A program made the translations under genes and the position numbers. Under the pieces are notes generated by a model. The model had not been told where the DNA came from, ran no database searches, and saw only the letters and a program-made list of their open reading frames with translations. A stretch of 11,431 bases of DNA from a virus: UHGV virus genome UHGV-1944538. One strand, given 5' to 3'. Every line of letters begins with the position of its first letter. The stretch's first letter is position 1. Shown here piece by piece: positions 1-11,431 of this stretch.

Positions 1-35
1 CTACGGAATAGAGATAACACGAGGAGTGGTTAGAA

Positions 36-68
36 ATGGCTAAAGTTCTGGTGCTTTTACATAGCTAA
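36..68 (+). pseudogene. wrbA: 5' stub of wrbA left at attL: native start codon and first 22 nt of wrbA fused to element DNA, reading MAKVLVLLHS-stop
   Basis: 36-57 atggctaaagttctggtgcttt equals the start of the wrbA ORF whose continuation (ttattattccatgtacgg...) is found at 11321 onward; after position 57 the sequence diverges and an in-frame TAA follows at 66-68. Confidence 0.7.
51..57. repeat. attL core GTGCTTT (shared between wrbA and element)
   Basis: Left junction matches native wrbA through position 57; identical 7-mer at the right junction. Confidence 0.6.
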
Positions 69-368
69 ACACGTACATTCAACTACCTGTTAAAAACAGG
101 ACAATATCAGGTGAATCTCTATGCAATTTAAAGGCATTTCCCCAAGTATCTAAGCAGTTTTACACAGATTCTATGCAGTATCGGTATAGTCCCTTTTTAT
201 CCTAACTTATTGAAATATATAGAGAATCTGTGAAGTCTCTTTTCAGGGTAAACTGTATCGTGTTAGTCGTCCCTCTCTCGACTCCTAGAAAAGTGCTATA
301 TACAGGACTATATGACGCTATTCATGCAGTTGGTCACATGGTGTAACTATCAAACCCTTAACGATTTC

Positions 369-476
369 CTACGTGAAAGTTAGGAGTTGATGGTTATAGT
401 TCCTTCGTAGTTCCTCTTAAAAAATCACTTACAGACATCTTAATCTCTATACAGATTTCACGTAGAACACGCTTAA
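369..476 (+). repeat. Diverged third copy of the inverted-repeat element: arms CTACGTGAAA (369-378) and TTTCACGTAG (456-465), followed by CACGCTTAA (468-476)
   Basis: Arms and 3' tail identical to the 70-bp repeats at 6514 and 8659, but the spacer between arms is 77 nt instead of 38. Confidence 0.5.
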
Positions 477-993
477 TGCGTAAAAGAGTCATTATGTTAA
501 AAACGCACTGTATACGTATCAGTACTGATTTATAAGGGTTTTGTTTATTTGAAGATAAGAGGCTATACAGCACCTTGAGAGCATGTCTTGTAAGTCATTG
601 ACATATAAGGTCACAGAAGTTTGTGTCTGTTACAGAGAAAACTGGACAGGACTTCACAGAGCTATAAAATGTTACAGCTATTGATAGGTGAAATCTTCTT
701 GATAGATGCTTTGAAGTGTGGTGAAGGTTTCTTGATGTGGAGTTAACAGATGCTATGAAGAAAGTCAATAGTTGGTTATAGATATTTTAACTGCTTTTGC
801 AAAGGGGGTGCTATATCGTGAATCTGGGGTACTTAACAGCCATCAATTGAGTGTAGATATTTTTTAAGATTATCGGTGAAGGGGAATGTAGAGGGAGTGC
901 TACGATTTTTATAAAAAAATTAGAAGATGAAAAATCACTGTATAAACTTTAATCAGACCTATCGACAAGTTTATGTCAGGTCTTTATTAACTA

Positions 994-1518
994 TCAGCTA
1001 AAATTCCTGTATCCATATTTACCATGCAATTCCAGTGATGCAGCATCATAGGCTTTTGCAGCTTCTTCTGCTGTATTAAACTGACCCAGATAATGAGATT
1101 TTCCATTACAGCGTATTGTAGCCCAGAACCCCTTGTTATCCACTCTTGGGTGTACTCCCTTGTAACCTGATTTTGTTTTCTTTCTGGGTATCATGTTTGC
1201 CTGATTCTGCTCTTTGGTAACCTCTCGAAGATTGCTAATAGCATTATTTAGCGGGTCACCATCTATATGGTCAATCCATAGTTTAGCTTGTTTACCATGA
1301 TATAGATAGAAAATAACCTGATGCACCTTAAGTATTCTGAACTTACCATTAATCCGACAACCAAAAGCCAGATATTGTCTTGGTTTAGGATTTACAAGTG
1401 AACCCTCGATTTTTACACCTTTTCTAAATAATGTTCCAGATTCAAAATCTGCTGTAATATTTTCATTGATGTATCTTATAACTTCTTCAGGCCATGCCTT
1501 GGTATACCTAGTCACCAT
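994..1518 (-). CDS. HNH-AP2 family homing endonuclease (N-terminal NUMOD4/HNH_3-like domain plus C-terminal AP2 DNA-binding domain)
   Basis: 174-aa ORF. HNH-type motif WIDHIDGDPLNNAISNLREVTKEQN; AP2-type C-terminus GYKGVHPRVDNKGFWATIRCNGKSHYLGQFNTAEEAAKAYDAASLELHGKYGYRNF. AAGGA about 7 nt upstream of ATG on the minus strand. Confidence 0.85.
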   Translation of the reverse strand: MVTRYTKAWPEEVIRYINENITADFESGTLFRKGVKIEGSLVNPKPRQYLAFGCRINGKFRILKVHQVIFYLYHGKQAKLWIDHIDGDPLNNAISNLREVTKEQNQANMIPRKKTKSGYKGVHPRVDNKGFWATIRCNGKSHYLGQFNTAEEAAKAYDAASLELHGKYGYRNFS

Positions 1519-1576
1519 AATATTCCTTATTTCAATTAACTTGTTGAGGTAATACTACCAAGAAACTTCATATCAT

Positions 1577-1604
1577 ATTTTAGATAATGATTGATATACA
1601 TCAA
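1577..1604 (-). promoter_or_regulatory. Candidate sigma70-type promoter for the HNH-AP2 gene (minus strand TTGATG-N16-TAAAAT)
   Basis: Reverse complement of 1599-1604 is TTGATG and of 1577-1582 is TAAAAT, 16-nt spacer, about 60 nt upstream of the start at 1518. Confidence 0.3.
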
Positions 1605-2369
1605 AAAACTATTAAGTTCTCGGAAGAAGACTATATAGATTAATGATGCTCTTATTGTAGGAGCATCTATTCCCAACAAGGGAACTACACAGAAACTAGA
1701 GAATATGCTCTGTAACACCTTCACAGTATCTATATCAGGTCAGATTCAGAGGTCTTGATAGAATCTTCAAAGGTACTTGACAGATAACTATGAAGTTGCT
1801 AGGAAGGGATGTTTAACGGGAGGAAAGATACGATATAACCCGAAGGGAGAGTATCATCTTAACAATTATTCTTAAGAGATACCTTGAAAAGACACTTAAC
1901 AGAACCACCAAGAAGAGAGGGAACGATAAGACCCAGAGGTAGTGACCTGTTAAACAGTTCGTTTCAAAGCTCTTAAGAGTCTGTTAAGTAGGGTCATGTG
2001 ACAATCTTACCATTTTGTCAATGCTTTTGTCTTTGACCTAAATCAATAAAATGTATCGTTTGATATGTTTTTAAACAAAATAGTTAAAAATCTTTTTAGA
2101 GGTGCGCTTCGCTTGTGTCACCAATATCATTCTTCCCTGTCTAAGAGGGAAGTTACAGGGCATTTCAAAGCCCTCAATAGGCAAACCGAGGAATACGGAA
2201 AACCGAGGGAAGAAAACTATTGTGATTACCTTGAACAAGGTCTGTAAAGGTCGTTTAAGAGGTCGGTTAAGAAAGGAGCTTCCCTCTCTGGGGTTATCGC
2301 TCTTCTCTCGATTAGTGGATTGATTAAGAAGACCTCTGAAGTTTCTCTGTGAAGGTGCTGAACAGCTAT

Positions 2370-2423
2370 TATATATGGCTAATTACAACTTATTGAAAAA
2401 TAAACATTTTTAGAAATTACTGT
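2370..2423 (+). repeat. 54-bp direct repeat, copy A (TATATATGG..ATTACAACTTATTGAAAAATAA..TTTTAGAAATTACTGT)
   Basis: Aligns without gaps to 2465-2518 at a constant 95-bp offset with about 5 mismatches. Confidence 0.7.
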
Positions 2424-2464
2424 TAAGGTTGCAGAGTTGTCTGTGAAGAGACTTGTCAGTTCTC

Positions 2465-2518
2465 TATATATGGGTGATTACAACTTATTGAAAAATAAGA
2501 ACTTTTAGAAATTACTGT
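2465..2518 (+). repeat. 54-bp direct repeat, copy B
   Basis: See copy A; both lie in the ORF-poor 1725-3111 region. Confidence 0.7.
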
Positions 2519-2827
2519 CAGAGAGGTGAATACTTGATAGATACAGCTTTCCGGTTCTGTCAAGCTATTTTTTAATAGATAGCACAAAGTGCTAAAGACA
2601 CCCCTATACCATCTCGTACAGGGGGTTTTGGAGGGATTAACGGGGGTCTGTATGGTCGTTATCCTTAAGGTCAAGCGTCCATGTACGACCGAACAGTCTA
2701 AAGACAACAAGCACCCTGACGAGGACGTAGCGAAGTAACAGACCTGCGAACAGACCCACACCTCCACCAGCCCACAAATCAGGTGACCCCAATTCCTGAG
2801 GGAGATTTACCATTAAATTTCCTTGTA

Positions 2828-2925
2828 AGACGCTCTCAATCGCATTCTGACACAAAAAAGTACCTGACCTTATAGTTGACCTGAAGAGGACGTTTAACTC
2901 GTTACAGAGCGATTGAAGAGGTCTG
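2828..2925 (+). repeat. Inverted-repeat-bounded unit I (98 bp): 5' block AGACGCTCTCAATCGCATTCT..CAAAAAA, variable middle, 3' block ..CTCGTTACAGAGCGATTGAAGAGGTCTG
   Basis: 5' and 3' blocks are conserved with unit II at 4468-4588; CTCAATCGC (2835-2843) is the reverse complement of GCGATTGAG-type sequence at 2909-2917, with an extended imperfect inverted repeat of about 16 bp. Confidence 0.7.
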
Positions 2926-3031
2926 CGTGCAATGCAATAACCATGTGACCAAATACATGGCCACGCCTTTATATTTTACTCTCCCCATAGGACCATTATA
3001 CCACAGATGTTAATAAAATGTTAAAAAATAC

Positions 3032-3060
3032 TTGACATTAGCCTTTGAAACTGCTAGTAT
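3032..3060 (+). promoter_or_regulatory. Candidate sigma70-type promoter TTGACA-N17-TAGTAT upstream of the 3112 operon
   Basis: TTGACA at 3032-3037, 17-nt spacer, TAGTAT at 3055-3060, followed by TGTATATATGAGTTAACAGA; about 50 nt upstream of ATG 3112. Confidence 0.45.
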
Positions 3061-3111
3061 TGTATATATGAGTTAACAGAATAATAACATCTTATGAGGG
3101 TCAGAATATGA

Positions 3112-3666
3112 ATGAGAGATGCAGAATTTAGAGCGATGCTTCAAGCATCAAGGGAACGTAACAGACACAACGGTTACAGCTACACAGACACCCCCACCAG
3201 CTACGAAGTCCCAGCCTTTACCAAATCCGAACGTAAAAACATTGAAGCGGTCATTCGTAGCATTACGCCACGAGACAGATATATGCCAACCAGAAAGAGC
3301 ACGAAGAATAGCTTGAAACCTTTCCTGATGAGCTTTGATTCTTACGAGCAATTACCATCAAAAATTGAAGATGTAATTATCGGTACTTGTCGCAGTCTTG
3401 GAAGGGATAATTATCACCGGAAAGTTTTCTATTTACTGCGAAGTCTTGATGAGATTAGTTCAGGCGCAATAACAAATTATCTTCAGCGACAAGCAACCAG
3501 ACTTAGCTACGAATTACCGTCTGATGGGTATTGCGCTAATTTAAGTACCATTTGCAGTAAAGTTATCGAGACAATCAATCATCATGTTGAGGTTGGTAAT
3601 ATCAACCTTACGACAAGTGAGCCAGACTTTGAATTTGACGTATACGCACAAGCAGAGGAATTTTAA
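3112..3666 (+). CDS. Hypothetical protein, 184 aa, acidic C-terminus; first gene of a four-gene coupled operon
   Basis: Long ORF downstream of the promoter-like site; GAGGG upstream of the start; stop 3664-3666 sits 1 nt before the next start codon. Confidence 0.7.
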   Translation: MRDAEFRAMLQASRERNRHNGYSYTDTPTSYEVPAFTKSERKNIEAVIRSITPRDRYMPTRKSTKNSLKPFLMSFDSYEQLPSKIEDVIIGTCRSLGRDNYHRKVFYLLRSLDEISSGAITNYLQRQATRLSYELPSDGYCANLSTICSKVIETINHHVEVGNINLTTSEPDFEFDVYAQAEEF

Positions 3667-3667
3667 A

Positions 3668-3955
3668 ATGAAAAACAAACACACTTTAACCCGTATTACA
3701 AAGACAGCCTTTGACGAACTTAACCGAATCAAAAACATTACAGGTCTGCCACACTCAGCAGTGATGAAGCTTGCAATTAACCGTGATATTAACGAACAGG
3801 ATTTGCTTAATAGTCGCTTAGAGGCTGCAAGACACCATATCAGGATTAAGCAAGATGACCTTGATAGTCTGAAATCTTTAAATGTTTTTGGACTGGATTT
3901 AGCAAGGTTACTAAGTATCAAAATTCACAAGTTAGCGGATAAATTGGGGGTTTAA
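3668..3955 (+). CDS. Hypothetical small protein, 95 aa (start placed at the ATG with an RBS, not at the track's upstream ATG 3584)
   Basis: GAGGA at 3655-3659, 8 nt before ATG 3668; the track start at 3584 lies inside the preceding gene. Confidence 0.65.
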   Translation: MKNKHTLTRITKTAFDELNRIKNITGLPHSAVMKLAINRDINEQDLLNSRLEAARHHIRIKQDDLDSLKSLNVFGLDLARLLSIKIHKLADKLGV

Positions 3956-4170
3956 TGCTATGCGTTACCTTTGAATATCACACGGATAAAATGATTCGCT
4001 ACATCTCCGACCTCCTGATTGAAGGAAACGGATTCGGTGACATCCACAACTCAAAAGATATTTTCATTAAAGCCATTGGCCCAAATGAAGTACTGAAAGC
4101 AGCAGTCAAGCCAGAATGGTTTGAGCGTCACAAGATTGAATTAGGTTATTGGGGTGAGGAGGTTTTATGA
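3955..4170 (+). CDS. Hypothetical small protein, 71 aa
   Basis: Start overlaps the upstream stop (TAATG at 3953-3957); GGGGG just upstream. Confidence 0.6.
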   Translation: MLCVTFEYHTDKMIRYISDLLIEGNGFGDIHNSKDIFIKAIGPNEVLKAAVKPEWFERHKIELGYWGEEVL

Positions 4171-4454
4171 AACCTTGGCATGAAGATGTTAGACGATATT
4201 TTACAGAACACCTTATCTATGATGAATCCAGTGATTCCCTGTGCTGGTCTGATGGAGAGTCAGTCACGATAAATACCGACGACTACGGCAACAAAACATT
4301 TAATATAGGCCGATATACTTTCTACGTGAAATATGTTGTCTGGTTCCTTTATCATGGCTATCAATCCAATAAGCAAATTATCCATCTAAATGGTAACAGA
4401 GCCGATACCAGACCAAAAAATCTTATGCAAGTCCGAGACTTTAAGAGAAATTAG
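4167..4454 (+). CDS. Truncated HNH_3-like protein, 95 aa, paralogous to the N-terminal half of the HNH-AP2 endonuclease but lacking the AP2 domain
   Basis: ATGA overlap with the upstream stop; GAGGAGG RBS. WHEDVRRYFTEHLIYDESSDSLCWS and YVVWFLYHGYQSNKQIIHLNGNRADTRPKNL parallel WPEEVIRYINENITADFESGTLFRK and HQVIFYLYHGKQAKLWIDHIDGDPLNNAISNL in the 994-1518 product. Confidence 0.65.
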   Translation: MKPWHEDVRRYFTEHLIYDESSDSLCWSDGESVTINTDDYGNKTFNIGRYTFYVKYVVWFLYHGYQSNKQIIHLNGNRADTRPKNLMQVRDFKRN

Positions 4455-4467
4455 AAAAACAGCTTCT

Positions 4468-4588
4468 CAGACGCTCTCAATCGCATTCTAACGCAAAAAA
4501 CTATCTTATTTTAGGGTGGGTAATACCACTGTACAGACTACCCCTGAAAAAGACTGTTTAGCTCGTTACAGAGCGATTGAGGAGGTCT
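4468..4588 (+). repeat. Inverted-repeat-bounded unit II (121 bp), homolog of unit I with a longer variable middle
   Basis: 5' block 4468-4500 and 3' block 4551-4588 nearly identical to unit I; it fills the gap between the 4454 stop and the RBS of the 4611 gene. Confidence 0.7.
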
Positions 4589-4610
4589 GGTAAAAAGGAG
4601 ATTTTAAGAA

Positions 4611-4940
4611 ATGAGAGAATTAAACTTCCCGCTACAGATTTTCGTTGATAGCGACACTGCTATGATGGTGCAAAGCTTCACTGATGCAGGTATTAGCATT
4701 GACTTTGACAGGCTGTTAAAGCTAATGGCTGAGAACTCAGAAGCAATTGAAGATTTTATTCAGGAAATTGAAACTGGTGACCCACGTTTTATGTTTCCCG
4801 TTACCGACTCAAACATGAAGCGCCTTATTATTGAGGAAACTAACCGATACAGCGTTAGCCCTGAAAAATATCTCAAGGCGGCTATAGTAATTTTGTACGC
4901 TGACAATGTTTTGGTTACGGATTCGAAGGTGGTGCATTAA
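4611..4940 (+). CDS. Hypothetical protein, 109 aa, acidic
   Basis: AAGGAG at 4595-4600 upstream of ATG 4611; clean ORF. Confidence 0.65.
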   Translation: MRELNFPLQIFVDSDTAMMVQSFTDAGISIDFDRLLKLMAENSEAIEDFIQEIETGDPRFMFPVTDSNMKRLIIEETNRYSVSPEKYLKAAIVILYADNVLVTDSKVVH

Positions 4941-5017
4941 TGGGCTTAATAATTGCTTGGACAGCTTTGGGTTTATTTGTTGGTTGCTGGGTAGGTAACA
5001 CAGTAAATAAGAATTGA
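4940..5017 (+). CDS. Candidate 25-aa single-helix hydrophobic peptide (MGLIIAWTALGLFVGCWVGNTVNKN), translationally coupled to the upstream gene
   Basis: ATG overlaps the upstream TAA; AAGGTGG at 4926-4932, 7 nt before the ATG. Not in the ORF track because of its size. Confidence 0.35.
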   Translation: MGLIIAWTALGLFVGCWVGNTVNKN

Positions 5018-5041
5018 TGTTACCAATCTGTTAAAAAGCTG

Positions 5042-5070
5042 TTGACAAATAACCTTGAGCATGACATAAT
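5042..5070 (+). promoter_or_regulatory. Candidate sigma70-type promoter TTGACA-N17-CATAAT
   Basis: TTGACA 5042-5047, 17-nt spacer, CATAAT 5065-5070, followed by TGTATATATAGG as at the 3032 promoter. Confidence 0.45.
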
Positions 5071-5076
5071 TGTATA

Positions 5077-5268
5077 TATAGGAAGAGCAATTTTTCCTAA
5101 AATCATATTTTCAATAATCCGATGGATGGATATTCTGAGTTGGAAAGGTGCAATGCTTTTCGTCATGGCCTTTCAGTTTAGTCTGAGAGGCTATCTCAAA
5201 AAGTCTTTGTTCATTCATTATTGAACCCTTACAGCTTTGCCCTAATCATGAGTTAGGGCGTTTTCTTT
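5077..5268 (+). ncRNA. Candidate small RNA of about 190 nt between promoter 5042-5070 and the intrinsic terminator at 5239-5268; could instead encode a small hydrophobic peptide
   Basis: Promoter and terminator bracket a region with no RBS-preceded ORF; the track ORF 5042-5224 begins at the -35 hexamer itself. An internal 23-codon frame (5152-5223, MLFVMAFQFSLRGYLKKSLFIHY) lacks a good RBS. Confidence 0.3.
5239..5268 (+). terminator. Rho-independent terminator: stem GCCCTAA/TTAGGGC, 7-nt loop, then GTTTTCTTT
   Basis: Perfect 7-bp stem at 5239-5245 and 5253-5259 followed by a T-rich tract. Confidence 0.5.
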
Positions 5269-5337
5269 AAGAGTTTTAAACAGAGCTTTTAAAGAAAGTT
5301 TTTCCTGAAACTTCGTTAACGTTATAAGCAAACCTCC

Positions 5338-5370
5338 AAAGCCCTTCACAGAAACGTTTAGGGCTTTTCT
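5338..5370 (+). terminator. Second, weaker terminator-like hairpin: AAGCCCT ... AGGGCTT then TTCTT
   Basis: 7-bp stem with a 14-nt loop and a T-rich tail; shares the GCCCT..TTAGGGC..TTT pattern with the 5239 hairpin. Confidence 0.3.
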
Positions 5371-5468
5371 TAATAGAGCATCTTTAATAAATCGTTAAGT
5401 CATCTTCTAAGTGTATTGGCGTTGAAGGTGCTCTATTAAGAAATAAACCACACTTAGAGGAAGTTATA

Positions 5469-6179
5469 ATGACAAACGATTTATATATTAACGGTAAAAA
5501 GGTTGATAGCTTCGGTGACTGGTCGCCACAGACTGAACATCCAGCTATCGCTATTCAGCGTCAAGAGCATGACAAGCGCATTGAGCTTGAGCAAGAGCTA
5601 AAGATGTCACCAAAAACAACCATCTTTGTGTCTCCTGAGCCTCAAGAGATGCCTGATATTTGCAAGAGTGAAGCATTATTTAATCTTGAGCGTGAATATT
5701 ACCCACTGCTAAAAGAACAGCGCCTTAGATTAGATGACGCTTACGACAATGTGAAGAACTTTGAAGAGACTGAAAAGCCAACTGATTTTGATATTGAAGT
5801 GGAAATTAGACAAAACCCATTCGTATATTACTCAGTTGAGGATAATGATGGTTTTGGTACAGCAAGAGAGAATATCTCAAAAGTTCTTCAAAACATCCCT
5901 GAAGGATTCCGTTTAATTGATGTCAGACCAGCTTCACGCGGTACAGGTTCATATATTTTACTGTCTGATAAAACAGATGAAGAGATTTGTCAGTTAGCTG
6001 AAAAGAATCTACTTGAGCGTCATAGCAAAAAATTAAACAGATTTAAGCAAGAGCTTGCTAACCAGCTTAGAGCTATGAAGCAACTAATCAGTGACTATGA
6101 AACGCAGAAGAAGGTTGCTATGCAAGCCGATATTGAGCAGCTTACGAAGATTTCTCAGAAATATAGCAAGGCACTTTAA
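5469..6179 (+). CDS. Hypothetical protein, 236 aa, acidic with a predicted coiled-coil C-terminal third
   Basis: GAGGAAG 6 nt upstream of the ATG; long clean ORF; the C-terminus has a heptad-like charged pattern. Confidence 0.7.
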   Translation: MTNDLYINGKKVDSFGDWSPQTEHPAIAIQRQEHDKRIELEQELKMSPKTTIFVSPEPQEMPDICKSEALFNLEREYYPLLKEQRLRLDDAYDNVKNFEETEKPTDFDIEVEIRQNPFVYYSVEDNDGFGTARENISKVLQNIPEGFRLIDVRPASRGTGSYILLSDKTDEEICQLAEKNLLERHSKKLNRFKQELANQLRAMKQLISDYETQKKVAMQADIEQLTKISQKYSKAL

Positions 6180-6201
6180 CTATGAATTAAAGAGGTGATT
6201 A

Positions 6202-6411
6202 ATGTTTGAAGAACGTTTAGAGACTATTCGGTCTGTTTGTGAAAACTTAAAGTTACAAAATAAGCCAACCTTAAGAATTAAAAACAAACGTCAAGTTATC
6301 ACCTCACACAAACCAAAAACACGCAAGATTCCAAAATGGTGTATTGACCGTATCCCTTCTGATGCTCAAATCATAGGTGAAACGGAATTACATTATCTTG
6401 TCAGGCATTAA
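6202..6411 (+). CDS. Hypothetical small basic protein, 69 aa
   Basis: AAGAGGTGA RBS 5 nt upstream; Lys/Arg-rich; followed by a terminator-like hairpin. Confidence 0.6.
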   Translation: MFEERLETIRSVCENLKLQNKPTLRIKNKRQVITSHKPKTRKIPKWCIDRIPSDAQIIGETELHYLVRH

Positions 6412-6463
6412 AAAAAAAGAATTGGTTGGGTGTATGAGATAGGTTCTATCGAATCTATAACAC

Positions 6464-6506
6464 GGGGAGAGATTATCGATATTATTCGGTAGTTTCTCCC
6501 TTTTTT
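6464..6506 (+). terminator. Terminator-like hairpin (GGGAGA ... TCTCCC) followed by TTTTTT
   Basis: 6-bp G/C-rich stem at 6465-6470 and 6495-6500 with a long loop containing ATCGAT, then T6 at 6501-6506, immediately before repeat copy 1. Confidence 0.45.
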
Positions 6507-6513
6507 GTATGTG

Positions 6514-6583
6514 TGCTACGTGAAATCTTCTGAACAGATATACCCACCAAAAATTATTTTTTACGTAGCTCACGCTTAACAGA
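6514..6583 (+). repeat. 70-bp direct repeat, copy 1, containing an 11-bp inverted repeat (GCTACGTGAAA ... TTTTACGTAGC, one mismatch) and a CACGCTTAACAGA tail; lies immediately upstream of the 6599 gene
   Basis: 67 of 70 identity with 8659-8728. Confidence 0.8.
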
Positions 6584-6598
6584 GGTGAAATATGAACA

Positions 6599-8647
6599 AT
6601 GGCACAATTTAAAGTTGATAGTTTTATCGTTGAGCTAGGCTTCAGCGAGAACGTTATTAAGGGCTTGCAAAGAGTTGAAAAGGCAGCTTTGCAGTCAGCA
6701 CAAAGAATTGAACGTAATTTGAATAGAGCGTTTAAGGTCGATACCAAGCAATTTGACAGCAATCTGACAAGTTCTTTGAAGTCAATGGAAGGAAAAATTA
6801 ATAAGACCTTTGACCGTCTGGAAGCTAGAGCAAAAAATACTAAAGCTTTCCAGTTTACCACCAGATTTAATGACACTGTTAATCCTCCAAAACAACCGAG
6901 ACAGCCACGAATTAGCGGAAACAGAGCAATCACAGCAGCTTATTCAGCTAATATGACCAAGCTGAAAGGTCTTAACCCAATTGTCGAGAAATACATTAAG
7001 AGCCAGTTTTACGCATTAAGTAGTAAAGCTGGTCAGATGGATAACACCAAGTTTAATGAAGCCCTTGCTAAACTAAATTCAAGTGTAAGAGAAGCAATCA
7101 CTAAAGCCAGAGGTCATACATCCACCAGCATTAACGGTGACAGAGCAGCTAATAGTCTTGATAGTTTGAGTTCAGCAGCAGTTAAAACAGCAGGTGCATT
7201 TATCAGCTTTCAAGCTGTACTATCCGCTTATCAGCGAGTAATGGAAGTTGGCCTTCAACGTGCATCATCGGAAAGAAGTATTGATTTCGTATTTGATAAA
7301 GATGCAGGCCAAGTAAAAGAGTTCACAAAGTCATTAGCTCAAACAACGGGTTTAGATATCGCTGAACTGCAATCACAGTTTGCTGGTTTTGGTGCTTCAG
7401 CTAAAGAGTCTATGGGTATTCAAGGTTCTGAAGAACTTTTTAAAAGTATGATTGGCTATTCTCGTTTAATGGGTCGAAGTGAAGAAGAGATTAAGCGAGC
7501 ACTGACAGCATTATCACAGATGGCTGGTAAGGGTCAGATTATGGCTGAAGAGCTTAAGGGGCAATTAGCTGAAGCTGTTCCTGGTATGGTTCAGGTATTC
7601 GCTAAAGCAACCGGAAAGACTGAACAGGAATTATTTGATGCCATGAAGAAGGGGGCTTTAAAATCTGCCGATACTCTTCAGAAGGTCACTCAGGAACTGA
7701 ATAGACAAATCACCGCTAAAGGTGGCTGGAAAGCTATTTCAGAAAGTACACAGGCACAGCTAGGGAACCTGAAAAACTCTTGGAATACCACGCTTGATAG
7801 TATCTTCAGAGGTTCTGAAAATGGTCTGCAAGATTTCACACGAAGCCTAACAACGCTTTTAAACGCTCTTGGTGGAAGTGGTAAAACATTAGGTGAAAGT
7901 TTTGGTAGCTTGATGAGCGATATGTCACATGGTGTCGATAACCTGACTGATATTAGTTACAGGGTAAGGGCGTTCTTTGACGAGGTGACATTGGCTTATC
8001 GTGGTTTAACCGATGAACAAAAGAAAGTTGTTGATGCTTTAGGTTCTGGCTTGATTAATAGTTTAAAAGTCTTGGCTGGTGTTATTGCTGTGAATAAAGT
8101 TGTTGGTGTAACCAGAAGTATTTACGGGCTTATGACTGCTATCACAAGATTAGGTCAGGTCGCTGATACTACAGTGGATAACGTGAATAGAAAGAACGGG
8201 AAACCATCAAGGTTTAATCTTGGGAATATGCTATTAGCTGGTAGTGCTATCTATGCAGGTTATGAGAGATTAGCTTCTACGCCTGAACGAATGGAAGCAC
8301 AAGCTAAATTACCAGAGCTGGCTAAAGAGTCTGGACTTAAGCCAGTATTTACTATGGACGATGTGAAAGGTTGGTTTAATAGTGCAGCTATGAATCTTGC
8401 TAACTTCCAGCATCCAGAATTAATCACCATGAGACAAGATGCGGCATTAACGAATACGGATATCCAAAGCCTGAGAGATGAAATTAGTGCTTTGAGCAAA
8501 CGTATTCAGGAGCCTGTGAAAGTTTCACTTGGTGGTGAAGTTGCCATTAAACCAGATGAAACCAGCTTTATGACCTTTAGCAGTAATATCTACGACCAAT
8601 ACGCAGAAGCTACGCTATTAAGTTCATCATTCCCAGAAGATGATTGA
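6599..8647 (+). CDS. 682-aa protein with a tape-measure-type domain (central GKGQIMAEELKGQLAEAVPGMVQVFAKATGKTEQELFDAMKKGALKSADTLQKVTQEL segment) and a coiled-coil-rich N-terminus
   Basis: Long ORF; the central segment resembles, from memory, the conserved domain of siphovirus/lambdoid tape measure proteins. GAGGTG lies 11 nt upstream of the ATG. Domain assignment not verified by search. Confidence 0.75.
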   Translation: MAQFKVDSFIVELGFSENVIKGLQRVEKAALQSAQRIERNLNRAFKVDTKQFDSNLTSSLKSMEGKINKTFDRLEARAKNTKAFQFTTRFNDTVNPPKQPRQPRISGNRAITAAYSANMTKLKGLNPIVEKYIKSQFYALSSKAGQMDNTKFNEALAKLNSSVREAITKARGHTSTSINGDRAANSLDSLSSAAVKTAGAFISFQAVLSAYQRVMEVGLQRASSERSIDFVFDKDAGQVKEFTKSLAQTTGLDIAELQSQFAGFGASAKESMGIQGSEELFKSMIGYSRLMGRSEEEIKRALTALSQMAGKGQIMAEELKGQLAEAVPGMVQVFAKATGKTEQELFDAMKKGALKSADTLQKVTQELNRQITAKGGWKAISESTQAQLGNLKNSWNTTLDSIFRGSENGLQDFTRSLTTLLNALGGSGKTLGESFGSLMSDMSHGVDNLTDISYRVRAFFDEVTLAYRGLTDEQKKVVDALGSGLINSLKVLAGVIAVNKVVGVTRSIYGLMTAITRLGQVADTTVDNVNRKNGKPSRFNLGNMLLAGSAIYAGYERLASTPERMEAQAKLPELAKESGLKPVFTMDDVKGWFNSAAMNLANFQHPELITMRQDAALTNTDIQSLRDEISALSKRIQEPVKVSLGGEVAIKPDETSFMTFSSNIYDQYAEATLLSSSFPEDD

Positions 8648-8658
8648 TAATAGTCGAA

Positions 8659-8728
8659 TGCTACGTGAAATCTCCTGAACGGATATACCCACCAAAAATT
8701 ATTTTTCACGTAGCTCACGCTTAACAGA
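8659..8728 (+). repeat. 70-bp direct repeat, copy 2 (perfect 11-bp inverted arms GCTACGTGAAA / TTTCACGTAGC), immediately after the 6599-8647 gene and upstream of the 8805 gene
   Basis: Near-identical to 6514-6583; the two copies bracket the tape-measure-like gene. Confidence 0.8.
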
Positions 8729-8804
8729 TAAAACACTTATATATCAAAGGCTTGGTTAAAAATGATTAAAATACACTAAGCCTTTGAAATCAAAGGAGAA
8801 TTTA

Positions 8805-9578
8805 ATGATTTACACTAATCAGCTTCGTTACACTGGCAAAGATGGCGTTTACTTCCACTTAAGAGATAATGTAGATGCCTTCTTAACTTTATCAGCAACT
8901 GAAAATATGGAATTTGACAGCCCTATGCAGGTAACTACACAGAACATGCAATCAGGGCAAACCGTCACAGATAATGTGCAAAGAGCACCCAGAACAATCA
9001 CTATTAGCGGTGTCGTTGTAGTTGGCTATGAAGGAAGCTTATTATTAACTCGTCAGGGTCAATTAGTAGAAAACTTCATTGACACTCTTGAAAGCTGGAG
9101 AGACCAGAAGCAAATTATTTCGGTCATCTGTAAAGACGGTATCAAAATTGATGATTCCATTATTACGAGTTTTAAAGCCTCTAAAGATGTTGGTATTTCA
9201 AATGGTCTAAGAGTCCAGCTAACTTTTCAGGAAATTAACTTTAAAGCTATTGTGGGTCAGACTGATATTTCATCTGCGACTGGAAAAGCCGCGACTACTA
9301 ATGATGGTGGTGCTACCAGTAAAAAGAATGCGGGTAACGTGACTACTGAACGCAATAACGCACCTATGTTGCTGTGTCAGGAACTGTACAGCTACTCAGC
9401 ATCTGAGCTATCTGATGAAGCGTTAAAAGCCCGTAGTAATTGCTCTAAAAATGTCACGGTGAAAGATGGTGTAAGCACCTTCTCAGATGCCGCTAATGCG
9501 CAAGCTTCAAAAGTGCTTAAGTCGGGTAATGCTTTACGGAAGTTTAGTGTGAATCCGAATAAGAAGGGCACTTATTGA
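8805..9578 (+). CDS. Hypothetical protein, 257 aa, with a Ser/Thr/Asn/Gly-rich linker ([30 protein letters not shown]); positionally a possible tail-module partner of the upstream gene
   Basis: AGGAG at 8794-8798, 6 nt before ATG 8805; the track's earlier start at 8784 is a TTG without an RBS. No confident domain assignment. Confidence 0.65.
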
Positions 9579-9594
9579 TTGGTAACAATACCAA
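9577..9594. other. Hairpin (ATTGGTA-ACAA-TACCAAT) in the 19-bp gap between convergent genes; possible bidirectional terminator
   Basis: Perfect 7-bp inverted repeat between the stop codons at 9576-9578 (plus) and 9598-9600 (minus); A/T-rich, so weak. Confidence 0.25.
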
Positions 9595-9597
9595 TTC

Positions 9598-11241
9598 CTA
9601 AGCGTCCACCTCTTCCATATCACCAGCAGGATAAATCCTTGTTACTGGTTCACCAAAAATAAGCATATCATCTAGTGACTGCATCTCATCGGTTGCTTCT
9701 TCAAGCGTTAAGGTGTGGTCATCTTTACCATCAAGAGGGAAACCACGAATCATATTTCCATTGTGAAGATATATATCAACCAGCTTTTCATTACCAGAAA
9801 CAACAATCTCTTTCACCAGACGCTTAATGATAATCTGGGCTTCAGTTCTCCCCTCTACAGACTCCATATCAAGACCGCTTAAATCCAAGCTTGATACAGA
9901 TTTTACCCTCGCCTTTTCTCGTGATAACTGAACTATCAGTTCATCTTTTTCTTCCTGCTTAATCCGTAGTGCTTCTTGAATCTGAGTGATGTTAGGAAGC
10001 TGTATCAGCGTCTCAGTGAGTTTTTCCAGTTCACTATCAACGGTGTTTAGTCTGCGTTGTAGCTCATCTAATTTAGCTGTGTCAGTAGCTTCATCGTGTA
10101 GCTGTGACAGTTTGCTGAACAGACGACTACAAAGCTGTGTATCAAGTAACTTTCTGGACACTGTACCGTAGCTACAACGGGACTCCTTATTACCATTGCA
10201 ACGGTAAGTACCTTGATAAACGGGTTTACGTATCCCTGTAGGAGTCATTACAAGCCCACACTTACAACGGATAAGCCCCTTCAGTATGTTCACATATAGC
10301 CAGTGTTCACCGCTGGATGTTTTCCCCTTCCCTGTTTCCTCTAACAGTTGCTGTACAGCGTAAAACTTAGAGTCTGTGACAATCTGAGGATAGAACCCTT
10401 CAATTTCTTCACGTAACACTGTTTTACGGTCTTCTGTAGAAATCTTAGCGGGAAGGTAACCTAATACACTTCGTGAAGTCAGGATGTGTTTAACGCTTAA
10501 TGCTGACCAGTTGCCATCCGGTTTCTTAGTCTTGGATATTCTGACCTTACGCTGATTAATGGTCGGGTAACCTTGTTCGTTTAGCCATTTGCAGATAGCA
10601 AACATCGACATACCAGAAAGACGCTTGTCATAGATGATATTCACCAGTGACGCTTTATCTTCATCAACGATGTAGTGTGAACCGTCTTCTGATAGCTCTA
10701 ACCATCCGGGGGCTTGCTTACCCATAGGCTTCTTAAGTTCTCTTGCAAGCTGTGTTTTATGGTTCCAGACCTGAGCTATACGCTTTTGCTTAACAAGAGA
10801 TTCTTGGTGTGCTCGCTCAGCTATGATGATGTGCTTAATCAACTTCACAGGGTCTGTTAATGCTGATTTGTCGTAGAGTTCACCATCTCCCAGAGTCAGT
10901 ATAGAGACCCCTTTCCTCAGTATCTGCCTGACATCATCTATAGCTGTGTCGATATCAGCCCTACTGAAGCGGTCAAAGTTCTCTACAACAATCAAGGAAC
11001 CTTCTGGAATAGCCTCAGACATAACATTTTCAAACATACGTCTGAAGTCAGAACCTTGATTCTTATGTTGCTGGTGAAAACCAGATTTACCCTTATCAAC
11101 ATATCTGTGAGCAGGAAGAAGGTAATAATCGTTTTTGTGCTTAGAGTAGAAAGCATCAATGAGGTTTGTTTGCCGTCTTAAGGAGTCTCCTGAGTCTTGC
11201 TCTTTAGTACTCCACCTGATGTATGTCACTAGCAGCTTCAT
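9598..11241 (-). CDS. int: Large serine recombinase (serine integrase) of the element
   Basis: 547 aa. N-terminal resolvase-type motif YIRWSTKEQ with a candidate nucleophile Ser; Cys-rich zinc-ribbon-like segment [11 protein letters not shown]...[14 protein letters not shown]; C-terminal coiled coil. Located next to attR and read inward. Confidence 0.9.
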
Positions 11242-11292
11242 ATCTTCGGACTATGCTTATCTAAGTGGTTCATTGAACAGGAGAACAATGAT

Positions 11293-11431
11293 ATGAGTGT
11301 TAAGGCAAGAATACTAGTGCTTTATTATTCCATGTACGGACATATTGAAACGATGGCACGCGCAGTTGCTGAGGGTGCAAGCAAAGTCGATGGCGCAGAA
11401 GTTGTCGTTAAGCGTGTACCGGAAACCATGC
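11293..11431 (+). CDS. wrbA: wrbA, NAD(P)H:quinone oxidoreductase, 5' part with element-supplied start ([46 protein letters not shown]); partial, runs off the window
   Basis: From 11317 the sequence and translation match the WrbA N-terminus as I remember it (native [43 protein letters not shown]); AGGAG at 11279-11283 upstream of the new ATG. Confidence 0.85.
11317..11323. repeat. attR core GTGCTTT
   Basis: Identical to 51-57; wrbA identity resumes exactly here. Confidence 0.6.

What the first reader, a model, noticed from the sequence alone, without database searches (positions are those of the whole stretch)
620..8750. Short motifs recurring in intergenic DNA: TTAACAGA, TGTATATAT/TATATATGG and CTTGATAGA
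TTAACAGA occurs at 741, 1896, 3070, 6574 and 8719 (once in each 70-bp repeat and just after the 3032 promoter); GTTACAGAG is at 627, 2900 and 4563. A TATATAT core follows both sigma70-like promoters (3061 and 5071) and starts each 54-bp repeat (2370 and 2465). CTTGATAGA occurs at 698, 1754 and 2533. This over-representation in non-coding DNA suggests recognition sites for an element- or phage-encoded regulator, or phage-type promoter boxes.
Basis: seen in the sequence. Interest (0 to 1): 0.4.

Follow-up and report, generated by a model that had tools for sequence, protein, structure and literature searches.

The report
Phage-type DNA boxes in satellite island
The short repeated words are real and conserved, but they are the cores of several different repeated control modules in the gene-poor DNA of an 11-kb mobile island of E. 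coli that looks like a parasite of Felix O1-type phages; the main word, TTAACAG, is the same box those phages repeat around the ends of their own genome.

Summary
All the motifs are present, within 0-3 nt of the stated positions. Each is far above chance (0-1 of 3000 dinucleotide shuffles), although several copies lie inside longer repeats. They do not form one class.

- **(C)TTAACAG(A)**, hexamer core TTAACA, has 15 copies in 3.5 kb of non-coding DNA against 4 in 7.6 kb of coding DNA. Most copies are more conserved than their flanks in 5-19 related islands. It is also the box that Felixounavirus/Mooglevirus phages repeat, in 10.4-bp phase, in the 1.65-kb gene-free region that holds their 613-bp terminal repeat.
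- **Phage homology.** Two island segments (748-866 and 1890-1987) are homologous to that phage region. One spans the phage's right genome end.
- **TGTATATAT** is the transcript start of two paralogous sigma70 promoters.
- **TATATATGG** opens a 95-bp tandem repeat.
- **GTTACAGAG** is, in two of its three copies, an arm of a duplicated inverted-repeat module.
- **CTTGATAGA** belongs to a degenerate module related to the 70-nt repeats.

The window is an 11.3-kb island inserted in wrbA by a serine recombinase. It carries phage-derived tape-measure and Dit genes, and relatives occur in 8% of complete E. coli genomes. It is probably a satellite of these virulent phages. What binds the boxes, and which process they serve, is inferred and not shown.

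The parts
58..11320 (.). The whole integrative island (about 11.26 kb), inserted in the 5' end of wrbA. attL is GTGCTTT|TACATAGC. attR is ACTAGTGCTTT|ATTATTCC.
   Evidence: Window 1-57 is host wrbA DNA. Relatives at other sites start to match at about 81. An attP-type junction is seen in a tandem dimer. Same island in strain ES5 between ymdF and wrbA.
743..750 (+). TTAACAGA box (GTTAACAGA), at the left edge of the segment homologous to the phage terminal-repeat right boundary
   Evidence: conservation 0.95 against 0.86 in flanks
832..839 (+). CTTAACAG box inside GGGGTACTTAACAGCC. It aligns with the phage genome-end word GCTGTTAAGGGCTACC|AAGCAG.
   Evidence: invariant in independently found relatives; conservation 0.99
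748..866 (+). Segment homologous to the Felixounavirus/Mooglevirus right terminal-repeat boundary and the DNA just outside it. In relative L007 the match extends to about 950.
   Evidence: nhmmer E 9e-5 (16.9 bits) in the window. All five islands tested are hit, on the same strand. 200 shuffles reach at most 1.8 bits.
1890..1987 (+). Segment homologous to the interior of the phage terminal repeat (GGGAACGATAAGACC.AGAG.TAGTGACC.TGTTAA). It starts with CTTAACAGA at 1895 and ends with TCTGTTAAG at 1979.
   Evidence: blastn 82-85% over 55-61 nt against three phages; nhmmer E 3e-6
1857..1865 (+). TCTTAACAA box. TCTTAACA is present in all six islands aligned.
3007..3029 (+). Two TGTTAA boxes (the TTAACA box inverted) 10 bp apart, directly upstream of the -35 of P3032
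   Evidence: Tandem Repeats Finder period 11 x2.2; nearly invariant in relatives
3032..3069 (+). Promoter P3032 (TTGACA-17-TAGTAT with upstream TG), followed by TGTATATAT at 3061-3069 as the transcript start region
3073..3080 (+). TTAACAGA box (GTTAACAGA) at about +5 of P3032, 32 nt before the first operon starts at 3112
   Evidence: conservation 0.99 against 0.79 in flanks
5019..5079 (+). Promoter module P5042, a paralogue of P3032: TGTTACC-10-TGTTAAA-11-TGTTGACA, -10 CATAAT, then TGTATATAT at 5071-5079. TTAACAGA lies on the - strand at 5027-5034.
6514..6583 (+). 70-nt repeat, copy 1, upstream of the tape-measure gene. Hairpin arms are CTACGTGAAA / TTTTACGTAG; it ends with CACGCTTAACAGA (box at 6576-6583).
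8659..8728 (+). 70-nt repeat, copy 2, upstream of the Dit-like gene (box at 8721-8728)
   Evidence: (z = -3.15); box conservation 1.00
369..480 (+). Third, longer version of the same hairpin: CTACGTGAAA ... TTTCACGTAGAACACGCTTAATGCG
629..637 (+). GTTACAGAG copy in the highly conserved left non-coding block
   Evidence: conservation 0.96
2822..2925 (+). Inverted-repeat module, copy 1 (arms GACGCTCTCAATCGC / GCGATTGAAGAGGTC). GTTACAGAG at 2901-2909 lies in the 3' arm. This copy is absent in relative L008.
4463..4589 (+). Inverted-repeat module, copy 2, between the HNH gene and the ORF at 4611. GTTACAGAG at 4565-4573 lies in the 3' arm. The module forms a long hairpin.
   Evidence: z = -5.6 on either strand; conservation 0.99
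698..706 (+). CTTGATAGA inside AGGTGAAATCTTCTTGATAGAT, a degenerate copy of the 5' half of the 70-nt repeat
   Evidence: family D7; conservation 0.97
1754..1762 (+). CTTGATAGA, poorly conserved copy
   Evidence: Conservation 0.46 against 0.44 in flanks
2533..2541 (+). CTTGATAGA inside AGGTGAATACTTGATAGAT, at the end of the 95-bp tandem repeat
   Evidence: conservation 0.96
2346..2558 (+). 95-bp tandem repeat, two units.
   Evidence: Tandem Repeats Finder period 95, 2.0 copies, 77% matches
3668..3955 (+). Gene for a 95-aa tandem ribbon-helix-helix protein, the candidate island-encoded DNA-binding regulator
   Evidence: AlphaFold2 pLDDT 90.5 with a beta-alpha-alpha unit twice. Best solved-structure matches are TraY of the F relaxosome, DndE and AvtR.
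6599..8647 (+). Tape-measure gene related to that of the helper phages
8805..9578 (+). Dit-like baseplate hub gene. Residues are 77% identical to garuso gp119, and 8834-9338 is 94-95% identical in DNA to many Felixounavirus genomes.
9598..11241 (-). Large serine recombinase (integrase)
   Evidence: Pfam Resolvase + Recombinase + zinc ribbon

Best explanation
SHOWN.
- The window is an 11.3-kb integrative island with a large serine recombinase. Its only genes with homologues in the phage genome compared (garuso) are a tape-measure gene, a Dit/baseplate gene and HNH nucleases. These are related to virulent Felix O1-type phages (Ounavirinae).
- About a third of the island is gene-poor DNA built from repeated modules.
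- The main class, TTAACA extended to (C)TTAACAG(A), is the same box the phages iterate on one face of the helix in the gene-free region that carries their direct terminal repeat. It also occurs, inverted, next to both repeat boundaries.
- The island has two segments homologous to that phage region, one of them spanning the right genome end.

INFERRED.
- The island is a satellite-like parasite of these phages.
- Its TTAACA-type boxes are binding sites for the protein that recognises the boxes in the phage. A packaging (terminase-associated) protein is most likely; a replication or transcription factor is less likely.
- Helper infection would thereby couple to the island's packaging and to expression from P3032, which is bracketed by inverted boxes, and of the two phage-derived tail genes, each preceded by a box.

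The other words are island-specific.
- TGTATATAT is the shared transcript start of two duplicated sigma70 promoters.
- TATATATGG is the head of a 95-bp tandem repeat.
- GTTACAGAG is, in two of its three copies, an arm of a duplicated 100-130-nt inverted repeat.
- CTTGATAGA is part of a degenerate module related to the 70-nt hairpin repeat.
For: Island nature.
- Discrete element at wrbA, yecE/DUF72 and mdtG, with conserved gene order and a serine recombinase.
- Exact ends, and an attP junction in a tandem dimer.
- Relatives in 442 of 5426 complete E. coli genomes. Protein relatives also in Citrobacter, Shigella and E. albertii.
- Tape-measure and Dit genes match Felixounavirus.

Box enrichment in the island.
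- TTAACAGA 8 against 0.81 expected.
- TTAACA 15 against 4.2 expected, 0 of 2000 shuffles. That is 4.2 per kb in non-coding DNA against 0.53 per kb in coding DNA.

Conservation.
- Copies at 743, 832, 3073 and 8721 score 0.95-1.00 against 0.79-0.92 in flanks.

Phage link.
- The 1.65-kb gene-free region of garuso, mio and Sf15 is packed with CTTAACAG, TCTTAACA and CTAACAAG on one strand.
- 7 of 23 CTTAACAG copies and 13 of 26 TCTTAACA copies lie in 1.9% of the garuso genome.
- The boxes are phased at 10.4 bp: R 0.62-0.71 against a 95% null of 0.51-0.63.
- Phage Ro111lw has a 613-bp direct terminal repeat mapping inside this region, with TAGCCC(CC)TTAACA inverted at its two boundaries. Five other records end at the same point. 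A 581-bp terminal repeat is reported for another Felixounavirus (PMC8303462).
- Homology of island 748-866 and 1890-1987 to this region: with the shuffle control.
- The phage 8-mer vocabulary hits island non-coding DNA 29 times against 8.2 in shuffles (0 of 1000), and 1.0 per kb in host flanks.

Module assignments.
Against: - No experiment. Neither helper dependence, excision, packaging nor any protein-DNA contact is shown.
- Island boxes are dispersed rather than arrayed as in the phage. Only the promoter-proximal TGTTAA pairs show about 10-bp spacing.
- Relative to the two homologous segments, the island's + strand boxes are the reverse complement of the phage's.
- No convincing homologue of the left terminal-repeat boundary was found.
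- The copy at 1896 is poorly conserved (0.38). The copy upstream of the tape-measure gene loses its C in three relatives.
- CTAACAAG, the phage's other frequent box, is absent from the island.
- The island has no recognisable terminase, replication or capsid-sizing gene. How 11 kb would fill an 87-kb head is therefore open.
- Conservation at 780-803 is partly built in, because 17 loci were retrieved by an exact 24-mer from there.
Confidence: 0.5

Rival explanations
1. The boxes are operators for the island's own regulator. The tandem ribbon-helix-helix protein p95 (3668-3955) binds short iterated words around P3032, P5042 and the tail-gene leaders. It keeps the island silent or times its expression. 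The likeness to phage boxes reflects shared ancestry of the DNA, not use by a phage protein.
For: - p95 folds as two ribbon-helix-helix units (pLDDT 90.5). It resembles TraY, DndE and AvtR. By established knowledge, these proteins bind short repeated DNA words.
- The beta-strand residues TLTRI and HIRI are nearly invariant across p95 relatives down to 53% identity, as are the promoter-proximal boxes.
- P3032 is bracketed by TGTTAA-10-TGTTAA upstream and GTTAACAGA at about +5.
- p95 is encoded in the operon driven by P3032, the usual layout for autoregulation.
Against: - It does not explain why the same 8-9-mer is the top iterated word of the phage terminal-repeat region, given that garuso encodes no p95 homologue.
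- It does not explain the homology of 748-866 to a phage genome end.
- Fold matches are weak in E-value (0.03). DNA binding is not shown.
Confidence: 0.25
2. Some of the words act in RNA, not DNA. The 70-nt repeat is a hairpin in the leaders of the tape-measure and Dit mRNAs, with UUAACAGA just before the ribosome-binding region. GUUACAGAG is part of a long intercistronic hairpin that acts as a processing, stability or translational control element.
For: - The 70-nt repeats fold with z = -1.9 and -3.2 on the + strand, against -0.6 on the - strand.
- One stem position shows G-C, G.U and A-U states among relatives and never A.C.
- 4463-4595 folds with z = -5.6 and lies between two genes of one operon.
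- Structured RNA does occur in this island: the P5042 transcript has covarying pairs.
Against: - The long hairpin folds equally well on either strand.
- Arm conservation with a variable loop fits paired protein half-sites equally well.
- The boxes at 743, 832 and 1896 have no such RNA context, and 590-860 is not structured (z = +1.0 and -0.3).
- No Rfam family matches.
Confidence: 0.12
3. The words have no function of their own. They are leftovers of internal duplications and of recombination with phage DNA, and they look conserved only because the island family is young.
For: - Many copies sit in longer repeats.
- The island clearly exchanges DNA with phages: 505 nt at 94-95% identity.
- Copies at 1754, 1896 and 2901 are no better conserved than their flanks.
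- Module copy 2822-2925 is missing in L008.
Against: - Relatives differ by 10-25% in surrounding non-coding DNA, yet most copies are invariant or nearly so.
- TTAACA is 8 times denser in non-coding than in coding DNA.
- Placement is non-random: flanking a promoter, and directly before both phage-derived genes.
Confidence: 0.1

Closest known systems
P4 satellite with helper P2 (shared cos site; late promoters answering to helper and satellite activators)
   Same: A small integrated element whose non-coding DNA carries copies of the helper's packaging site and of helper-type regulatory sites, so that helper proteins act on it (established knowledge).
   Different: - Here the presumed helper is a virulent phage with direct terminal repeats, not a temperate cos phage.
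- The integrase is a serine recombinase.
- No Sid, Psu, Delta or alpha-primase domains were found.
- The island carries tail genes, not capsid-size genes.
PLE of Vibrio cholerae with the lytic myophage ICP1
   Same: An island with a large serine recombinase that parasitises a virulent myophage (PMC6002521, abstract seen). It also has a sizeable non-coding region with repeats, and nuclease genes.
   Different: - No sequence or domain relationship to PLE proteins was detected or specifically tested.
- PLE replicates with its own RepA on its own iterons (my knowledge). Here no replication protein is recognisable, and the boxes are the helper's.
- Different host and different phage family.
PICMI, minimalist satellites of virulent marine phages
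   Same: Reduced gene content, no capsid-remodelling genes, virulent helpers, and packaging as a concatemer (PMC10803314, abstract seen). Concatemer packaging would solve the 11-kb versus 87-kb problem here. A head-to-tail dimer of the island exists.
   Different: Different hosts and genes. Concatemer packaging is only conjecture here. PICMIs are not known to carry tail genes.
cos-type and pac-type PICIs/SaPIs
   Same: They carry the helper's packaging signal in cis (established knowledge). Some encode homologues of helper structural proteins, for example the Ccm capsid homologue (PMC8569155, abstract seen).
   Different: Those have tyrosine integrases, AlpA/Stl-type regulation, primase-replicase modules and temperate helpers. 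None of these was found here.
Short repeat arrays beside the terminal repeat / concatemer junction of T7-type phages
   Same: Iterated short words flanking a short direct terminal repeat where the terminase cuts (my knowledge). This is the best analogy for the phage-side boxes.
   Different: Unrelated sequences and phage family. The role of such arrays is itself not settled.
Ribbon-helix-helix proteins that read iterated words: omega of pSM19035 (7-bp heptads), TraY, AvtR
   Same: Short words repeated in direct and inverted orientation around promoters. A tandem ribbon-helix-helix protein is encoded next to them.
   Different: No sequence similarity (10-14% identity in the fold matches). Binding was not tested.

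Membership tests
Phage satellite (helper-dependent mobilisable island) | Discrete integrated element with its own integrase and att sites, found at more than one chromosomal site | tested here: met
   Large serine recombinase. Insertions at wrbA, yecE/DUF72 and mdtG with the same gene order. Ends and an attP junction defined.
Phage satellite (helper-dependent mobilisable island) | Lacks the genes to build its own virion and package DNA (no capsid, portal or terminase) | tested here: met
   Pfam, PHROGs and NCBIfam find only HNH nucleases, a tape-measure protein, a Dit-like protein and the recombinase.
Phage satellite (helper-dependent mobilisable island) | Carries in cis a packaging signal recognised by the helper's terminase | tested here: inconclusive
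   Segment 748-866 is homologous to the phage right terminal-repeat boundary, and boxes are shared. No left-boundary homologue was found, and the box orientation is inverted.
Phage satellite (helper-dependent mobilisable island) | Excises, replicates and is transferred in helper particles on helper infection | not testable with these tools
   The two IMG/VR contigs holding the island are 25-33 kb, longer than the island. No particle-derived evidence.
PICI / cfPICI / P4-like satellites | Tyrosine integrase, AlpA-type regulator, primase-replicase (PICI); capsid module (cfPICI); Sid/Psu/Delta, alpha primase and cos (P4) | tested here: not met
   None of these domains appears in any ORF at Pfam E <= 0.01. 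The integrase is a serine recombinase.
PLE-like elements | Large serine recombinase, and a virulent myophage as helper | tested here: inconclusive
   The recombinase type is met. The helper identity is inferred only from tape-measure/Dit/non-coding DNA homology to Ounavirinae.
PLE-like elements | Homology to PLE core proteins (RepA, TcaP and others) | not tested
   No PLE sequences were compared. The generic libraries gave no hits for the unknown ORFs.
Iterated protein-binding boxes at a phage packaging or replication region | Many copies of one word, mostly in one orientation, concentrated in one gene-free region and in helical phase | tested here: met
   True for the phages: 16-fold concentration and 10.4-bp phasing. 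Only partly true for the island: enriched 3.6-fold over shuffles, but dispersed and on both strands.
Iterated protein-binding boxes at a phage packaging or replication region | A defined protein binds the boxes | not testable with these tools
   No binding data. Felix O1 transcription and packaging control is undescribed (PMC3185647).
Sigma70 promoters (P3032, P5042) | -35 and -10 hexamers at 17 bp, with an extended -10 TG | tested here: met
   10/12 and 11/12 matches with TG. The two modules are paralogous over about 60 nt and nearly invariant in relatives. Activity not tested.
Ribbon-helix-helix DNA-binding proteins (p95) | Beta-alpha-alpha unit forming a two-stranded sheet; here two units in one chain | tested here: met
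   Model has strands E5-11 and E55-61, each followed by two helices; pLDDT 90.5. Best PDB folds are TraY, DndE and AvtR: probability 0.98-0.99 and TM about 0.5-0.6 for the top TraY and DndE hits, weaker for AvtR (probability 0.33, TM 0.48); E about 0.03 or higher.
Known RNA families (Rfam 15) | Covariance-model match | tested here: not met
   No match at E <= 1 anywhere in the window.

The most novel reading that the evidence does not exclude
This is an undescribed and common family of satellites of strictly virulent Felix O1-type phages. Relatives occur in 8% of complete E. coli genomes and also in Citrobacter. The satellite has no replication, terminase or capsid-sizing genes of its own. Instead it copies the helper's cis-elements: terminal-repeat boundary DNA, phased TTAACAG boxes and early-type promoters. 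This would get it amplified and packaged, probably as head-to-tail multimers, while it supplies its own tape-measure and Dit proteins to alter or sabotage the helper's tail.
Probability: 0.35. Interest if true: 0.8.

Novelty: new variant of a known kind. Interest (0 to 1): 0.6.

Why it matters
- **Known satellites of virulent phages are few.** PLE and PICMI are the two such families I could compare here, and I know of none described in E. coli.
- **The presumed helpers matter in practice.** Felix O1-type phages are standard typing, biocontrol and therapy phages for Salmonella and E. coli.
- **Possible effect on phage use.** A common chromosomal island that plugs into their packaging region and carries substitute tail genes could affect phage efficacy, host range and gene transfer.
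- **A lead on the phages themselves.** The analysis points to a concrete, testable candidate for the unknown packaging recognition site: the inverted TAGCCC(CC)TTAACA words at both terminal-repeat boundaries and the phased boxes between them.
- **Limits of the original finding.** A list of short words taken on its own is of modest interest. Its value lies in what the words led to.

Tried and rejected
1. **Helper promoter boxes.** I scanned the whole garuso genome and its intergenic regions. GTTACAGAG, CTTGATAGA, TGTATATAT, CTACGTGAAA and CACGCTTAA are absent or at background. The phage's own early-gene modules are unrelated words.
2. **A large structured RNA in 590-860.** Rejected: z = +1.0 and -0.3. 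Rfam found nothing.
3. **Direct DNA similarity of the non-coding DNA to phages.** No match for 1536-3111. Only host DNA matched for 1-993. A short terminator-proximal match was found for 6431-6467. Homology to the terminal-repeat region appeared only with word size 7-9 and profile searches.
4. **Left terminal-repeat boundary in the island.** Only a marginal minus-strand hit in one relative, E 0.016. The likeness of TTACGTAGCTCACGCTTAACA to the phage TTACGTAAATGCTAGCCCCCTTAACA needs a 5-nt gap, so I left it as a lead.
5. **Function of p184.** The model has pLDDT 69 and no fold match. p236 has no PDB, Pfam or NCBIfam match.
6. **Distant relatives through GTDB representative genomes.** Only E. 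albertii was found.
7. **Literature.** No paper in the held library links a satellite to Felix O1 or Felixounavirus. The Felix O1 genome paper describes neither the gene-free region nor late promoters. A guess that the O157 copy equals a named Sakai prophage-like element could not be checked.
8. **RNA versus DNA for the 70-nt hairpin.** The pair states G-C, G.T and A-T fit both models.

Full report
**1. The observation**

All the reported words exist, with offsets of 0-3 nt.
- TTAACAGA lies on the + strand at 743, 1896, 3073, 6576 and 8721. It also lies on the - strand at 1980, 5027 and 10853.
- GTTACAGAG lies at 629, 2901 and 4565.
- TGTATATAT lies at 3061 and 5071, TATATATGG at 2370 and 2465, and CTTGATAGA at 698, 1754 and 2533.

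They exceed chance.
- TTAACAGA occurs 8 times in the window against 0.81 expected, with 0 of 200 shuffles reaching 8.
- In the 3534 nt of non-coding DNA each word beats 3000 dinucleotide-preserving shuffles (0-1 reach it).
- Fifteen different 9-mers occur three or more times against 0.6 expected.

Part of this comes from longer repeats.
- These are a 70-nt repeat (6514 and 8659), a 51+34-nt pair (2822-2925 and 4463-4589), and a 95-bp tandem repeat.
- After masking one copy of each, TTAACAGA still has 4 copies against 0.16 expected. GTTACAGAG and CTTGATAGA drop to 2, and TATATATGG to 1.

**2. What the window is**

- The window matches a discrete element in E. coli ES5 lying between ymdF and wrbA at 91.6% identity.
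- Window 1-57 is host DNA containing the original wrbA start (MAKVLVL). The island supplies a new start at 11293.
- The junctions are GTGCTTT|TACATAGC on the left and ACTAGTGCTTT|ATTATTCC on the right. The island therefore spans about 58-11320.
- Relatives with the same gene order sit in yecE/DUF72 and mdtG.
- The 1.6 kb of non-coding DNA upstream of the first operon is found in 442 of 5426 complete E. coli genomes, mostly at 80-90% identity and nearly always unannotated.

The genes are as follows.
- A large serine recombinase.
- Two HNH nucleases, one with an AP2 domain, in a variable cargo slot.
- A tape-measure protein and a Dit-like baseplate protein.
- Several small proteins with no family match.

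The phage link in the genes is clear.
- The Dit-like gene is 94-95% identical in DNA over 505 nt to many Felixounavirus genomes.
- The tape-measure gene matches the garuso tape measure at its start and middle.
- Felix O1-type phages are strictly lytic myophages.

An integrative element that carries two of their tail genes, and no capsid or terminase gene, is best read as a satellite-like parasite or an anti-phage island directed at them. I found no paper in the held library that describes it.

**3. The main motif is a phage box**

The promoter-box reading failed first. A scan of phage garuso showed none of the words is enriched genome-wide. The phage's own intergenic modules use other words.

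A low-stringency comparison then matched island 1896-1953 to garuso 49667-49724.
- That position lies in a 1.65-kb gene-free region between convergent genes.
- The region is packed with TGTTAAG, CTGTTAAG and TTGTTAG. On the other strand these read TCTTAACA, CTTAACAG(A) and CTAACAAG.
- In garuso, 7 of 23 CTTAACAG copies and 13 of 26 TCTTAACA copies lie in this 1.9% of the genome. All seven CTTAACAG copies are on one strand.
- In three phages the boxes are phased at 10.4 bp: R 0.62-0.71 against a 95% null of 0.51-0.63. That is the signature of a protein-binding array on one face of the helix.

The island's top word, CTTAACAGA, is the same 9-mer.
- The set of 24 8-mers that recur in the phage regions hits island non-coding DNA 29 times against 8.2 in shuffles (0 of 1000).
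- The densities are 8.2 per kb in island non-coding DNA, 2.6 per kb in island coding DNA and 1.0 per kb in host flanks.
- The hexamer TTAACA occurs 15 times in non-coding and 4 times in coding DNA.

**4. The phage region holds the genome ends**

- The record of Felixounavirus Ro111lw begins and ends with an identical 613-bp direct repeat. It maps inside the gene-free region.
- Five other records break at the same left boundary.
- A 581-bp terminal repeat was reported for another member by PhageTerm (PMC8303462).
- The boundaries are almost invariant in garuso, mio, Ro111lw and the Mooglevirus Sf15. The left is ...GTTACGTAAATGCTA|GCCCCCTTAACATT... and the right is ...GCTGTTAAGGGCTACC|AAGCAGATATAC...
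- TAGCCC(CC)TTAACA is therefore present, inverted, at both boundaries.
- This makes the TTAACA box a good candidate for part of the packaging recognition site. That is my inference. Felix O1 packaging and transcription control are undescribed.

**5. The island carries homologues of that region**

A profile of the four phage regions finds two island segments, both on the + strand.
- Segment 1890-1987 matches the interior of the terminal repeat (E 3e-6).
- Segment 748-866 matches the right boundary and the DNA just outside it (E 9e-5). In relative L007 the match reaches the equivalent of about 950.
- The second match recurs in all five islands tested.
- 200 shuffles of the island's non-coding DNA never exceed 1.8 bits, against 14.6 and 8.1 bits with the full profile.

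In the alignment, the phage end GGGCTACC|AAGCAG corresponds to island GGGGTACTTAACAG (826-839).
- The stretch 772-847 is the most conserved non-coding DNA of the island and is invariant in the independently found relatives.
- Caveat: 17 further loci were retrieved with an exact 24-mer from 780-803. Conservation of those 24 nt is built into that larger sample.

**6. Placement of the boxes in the island**

Besides 743 and 832 (the boundary-like segment) and 1857, 1895, 1947 and 1981 (around the interior-like segment), boxes sit at regulatory positions.
- Two TGTTAA boxes 10 bp apart lie just upstream of the -35 of P3032. GTTAACAGA lies at about +5 of the same promoter.
- TGTTACC-10-TGTTAAA-11-TGTTGACA forms the upstream half of P5042.
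- CACGCTTAACAGA ends each 70-nt repeat, directly before the tape-measure and Dit genes.

Across 5-19 relatives the copies at 743, 832, 3073 and 8721 are conserved at 0.95-1.00 against 0.79-0.92 in the flanks.
- The copy at 1896 is not conserved (0.38).
- The copy before the tape-measure gene loses its C in three relatives.

**7. The other words**

- **TGTATATAT.** P3032 and P5042 are paralogous over about 60 nt: GATGTTA..TGTTAAAAA..TTGACA..CTTGA..TG.TA.TATTGTATATAT. TGTATATAT follows the -10 in both, so it is the shared transcript start and not a separate site.
- **TATATATGG.** These are really a 95-bp tandem duplication. It shares only TATATAT with the promoter word.
- **GTTACAGAG.** The copies at 2901 and 4565 lie in the 3' arm of a duplicated inverted-repeat module. 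Copy 2 folds into a long hairpin (z = -5.6 on either strand). Copy 1 is absent from one relative. The third copy, at 629, lies in the conserved left block.
- **CTTGATAGA.** The copies at 698 and 2533 share the context AGGTGAA(A)T..CTTGATAGAT. This is a degenerate relative of the 5' half of the 70-nt repeat, ACGTGAAATCTTCTGAACAGAT. The copy at 1754 is not conserved.
- None of these three words is enriched in the phage.

**8. Who reads the boxes**

Two candidates exist.
- **A helper protein.** This is suggested by identity with the phage's phased boxes and by homology to the genome end. It fits the rule, known from P4/P2 and from cos- and pac-type PICIs, that satellites carry the helper's cis-sites.
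- **The island's own p95.** It models with high confidence as a single-chain tandem ribbon-helix-helix protein (pLDDT 90.5). Its best solved-structure matches are TraY, DndE and AvtR. Such proteins typically bind short iterated words, and p95 sits in the operon driven by the box-flanked P3032.
- Garuso encodes no p95 homologue. If p95 reads the boxes, the phage boxes must be read by something else.
- I rate the helper-protein reading at about 0.5, the p95 reading at about 0.25, RNA-level roles for some words at about 0.12, and non-function at about 0.1.

**9. Open problems**

- The island's + strand boxes are inverted relative to the phage boxes when the homologous segments are co-oriented.
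- No left-boundary homologue was found.
- The island has no recognisable replication, terminase or capsid-sizing gene.
- An 11.3-kb genome would have to be packaged into an 87-kb head. Concatemer packaging, as reported for PICMI (PMC10803314), is a possibility. A metagenome contig with two 99.9% identical islands head to tail, joined by an attP junction, is compatible with it. This is conjecture.
- The tail genes could equally serve tail-assembly interference, which is a known defence logic (abstracts seen).

**10. Verdict**

It is wrong in treating the words as one set and as promoter boxes.
- The underlying object is a common island that shares cis-elements and tail genes with Felix O1-type virulent phages, and I found no description of it. 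I class it as a new variant of the satellite/helper theme and worth experimental follow-up.

Noticed in passing
window 5042-5268: Promoter P5042 drives a roughly 190-nt structured RNA that ends in an intrinsic terminator (5238-5268). The fold has z = -4.67. In 7 relatives there are 48 consensus pairs, and the first hairpin swaps G-C for A-U in 3 sequences. There is no Rfam match. It could be a regulatory small RNA or an attenuating leader for the 236-aa gene.
   Followed up: partly
L023 and L025 (metagenome contig OOBX01000469.1); window 11300-11323 joined to 48-60: Two 99.9% identical copies of the island lie head to tail in one contig. They are joined by an attP-type junction, ...AATACTAGTGCTTT|TACATAGCTAAAC... 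This may be an integrated dimer, and so a trace of multimeric transfer.
   Followed up: partly
window 36-57 and 11293-11431: The island sits inside the 5' end of wrbA. The old start codon and first 7 codons are left at the left junction. The island's right end provides a new in-frame start ([13 protein letters not shown]...), so wrbA probably stays functional. This is the same target gene that Stx phages use.
   Followed up: partly
window 2000-2115: A block of about 115 nt is almost invariant in all relatives: ACCATTTTGTCAATGCTTTTGTCTTTGACCTAAATCAATAAAATGTATCGTTTGATATG...TTTTTAGAGG. It has no ORF, no good promoter and no phage match. Function unknown.
   Followed up: no
window 2637-2813 (-) and 4940-5017 (+): Two very small hydrophobic proteins, of 58 aa and 25 aa. 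The 58-aa gene has a good ribosome-binding site and its own terminator (2601-2624). The corresponding minus-strand position in the ES5 island carries an annotated hypothetical-protein gene.
   Followed up: no
window about 950-1720, compared with L005-L008: A variable cargo slot. It holds an HNH-AP2 nuclease here, and a Dam-type methyltransferase, a small resolvase or an IS element in relatives.
   Followed up: partly
window 8834-9338: 505 nt of the Dit-like gene are 94-95% identical to many Felixounavirus genomes, while the rest of the island is far more diverged from the phages. This points to recent recombination between island and phage.
   Followed up: partly
window 5029-5050, compared with garuso at about 57,680: The upstream half of P5042, GTTAAAAAGCTGTTGACAAA, closely resembles the phage's divergent early promoter, GTTAAAAAAGTTGTTGACAAAG. 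The island's promoters may be phage early-type promoters.
   Followed up: partly
L007 and L008, at positions equivalent to window about 850, 2270 and 2950: Palindromic inserts of about 50 nt (TAGTTGATTCGGTTAGTTGGGCTTGTACCAACCCC...) occur at several non-coding sites in relatives but not in this window. They look like miniature mobile elements.
   Followed up: no
window 6431-6467: The DNA just before the terminator at 6464-6501 matches (86-96% over 28-35 nt) an unannotated spot at one edge of the gene-free region in about 57 Felixounavirus/Mooglevirus genomes. In phage mio it lies next to the end of the gene homologous to garuso_81.
   Followed up: partly
L004 4512-5102 (garuso 49,412-50,002); L012/L013: On the phage side, the direct terminal repeat (613 bp in Ro111lw) has the word TAGCCC(CC)TTAACA inverted at its two boundaries, with phased TGTTAAG boxes inside. 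This is a candidate packaging recognition site for Felix O1-type phages. I did not find it described.
   Followed up: partly
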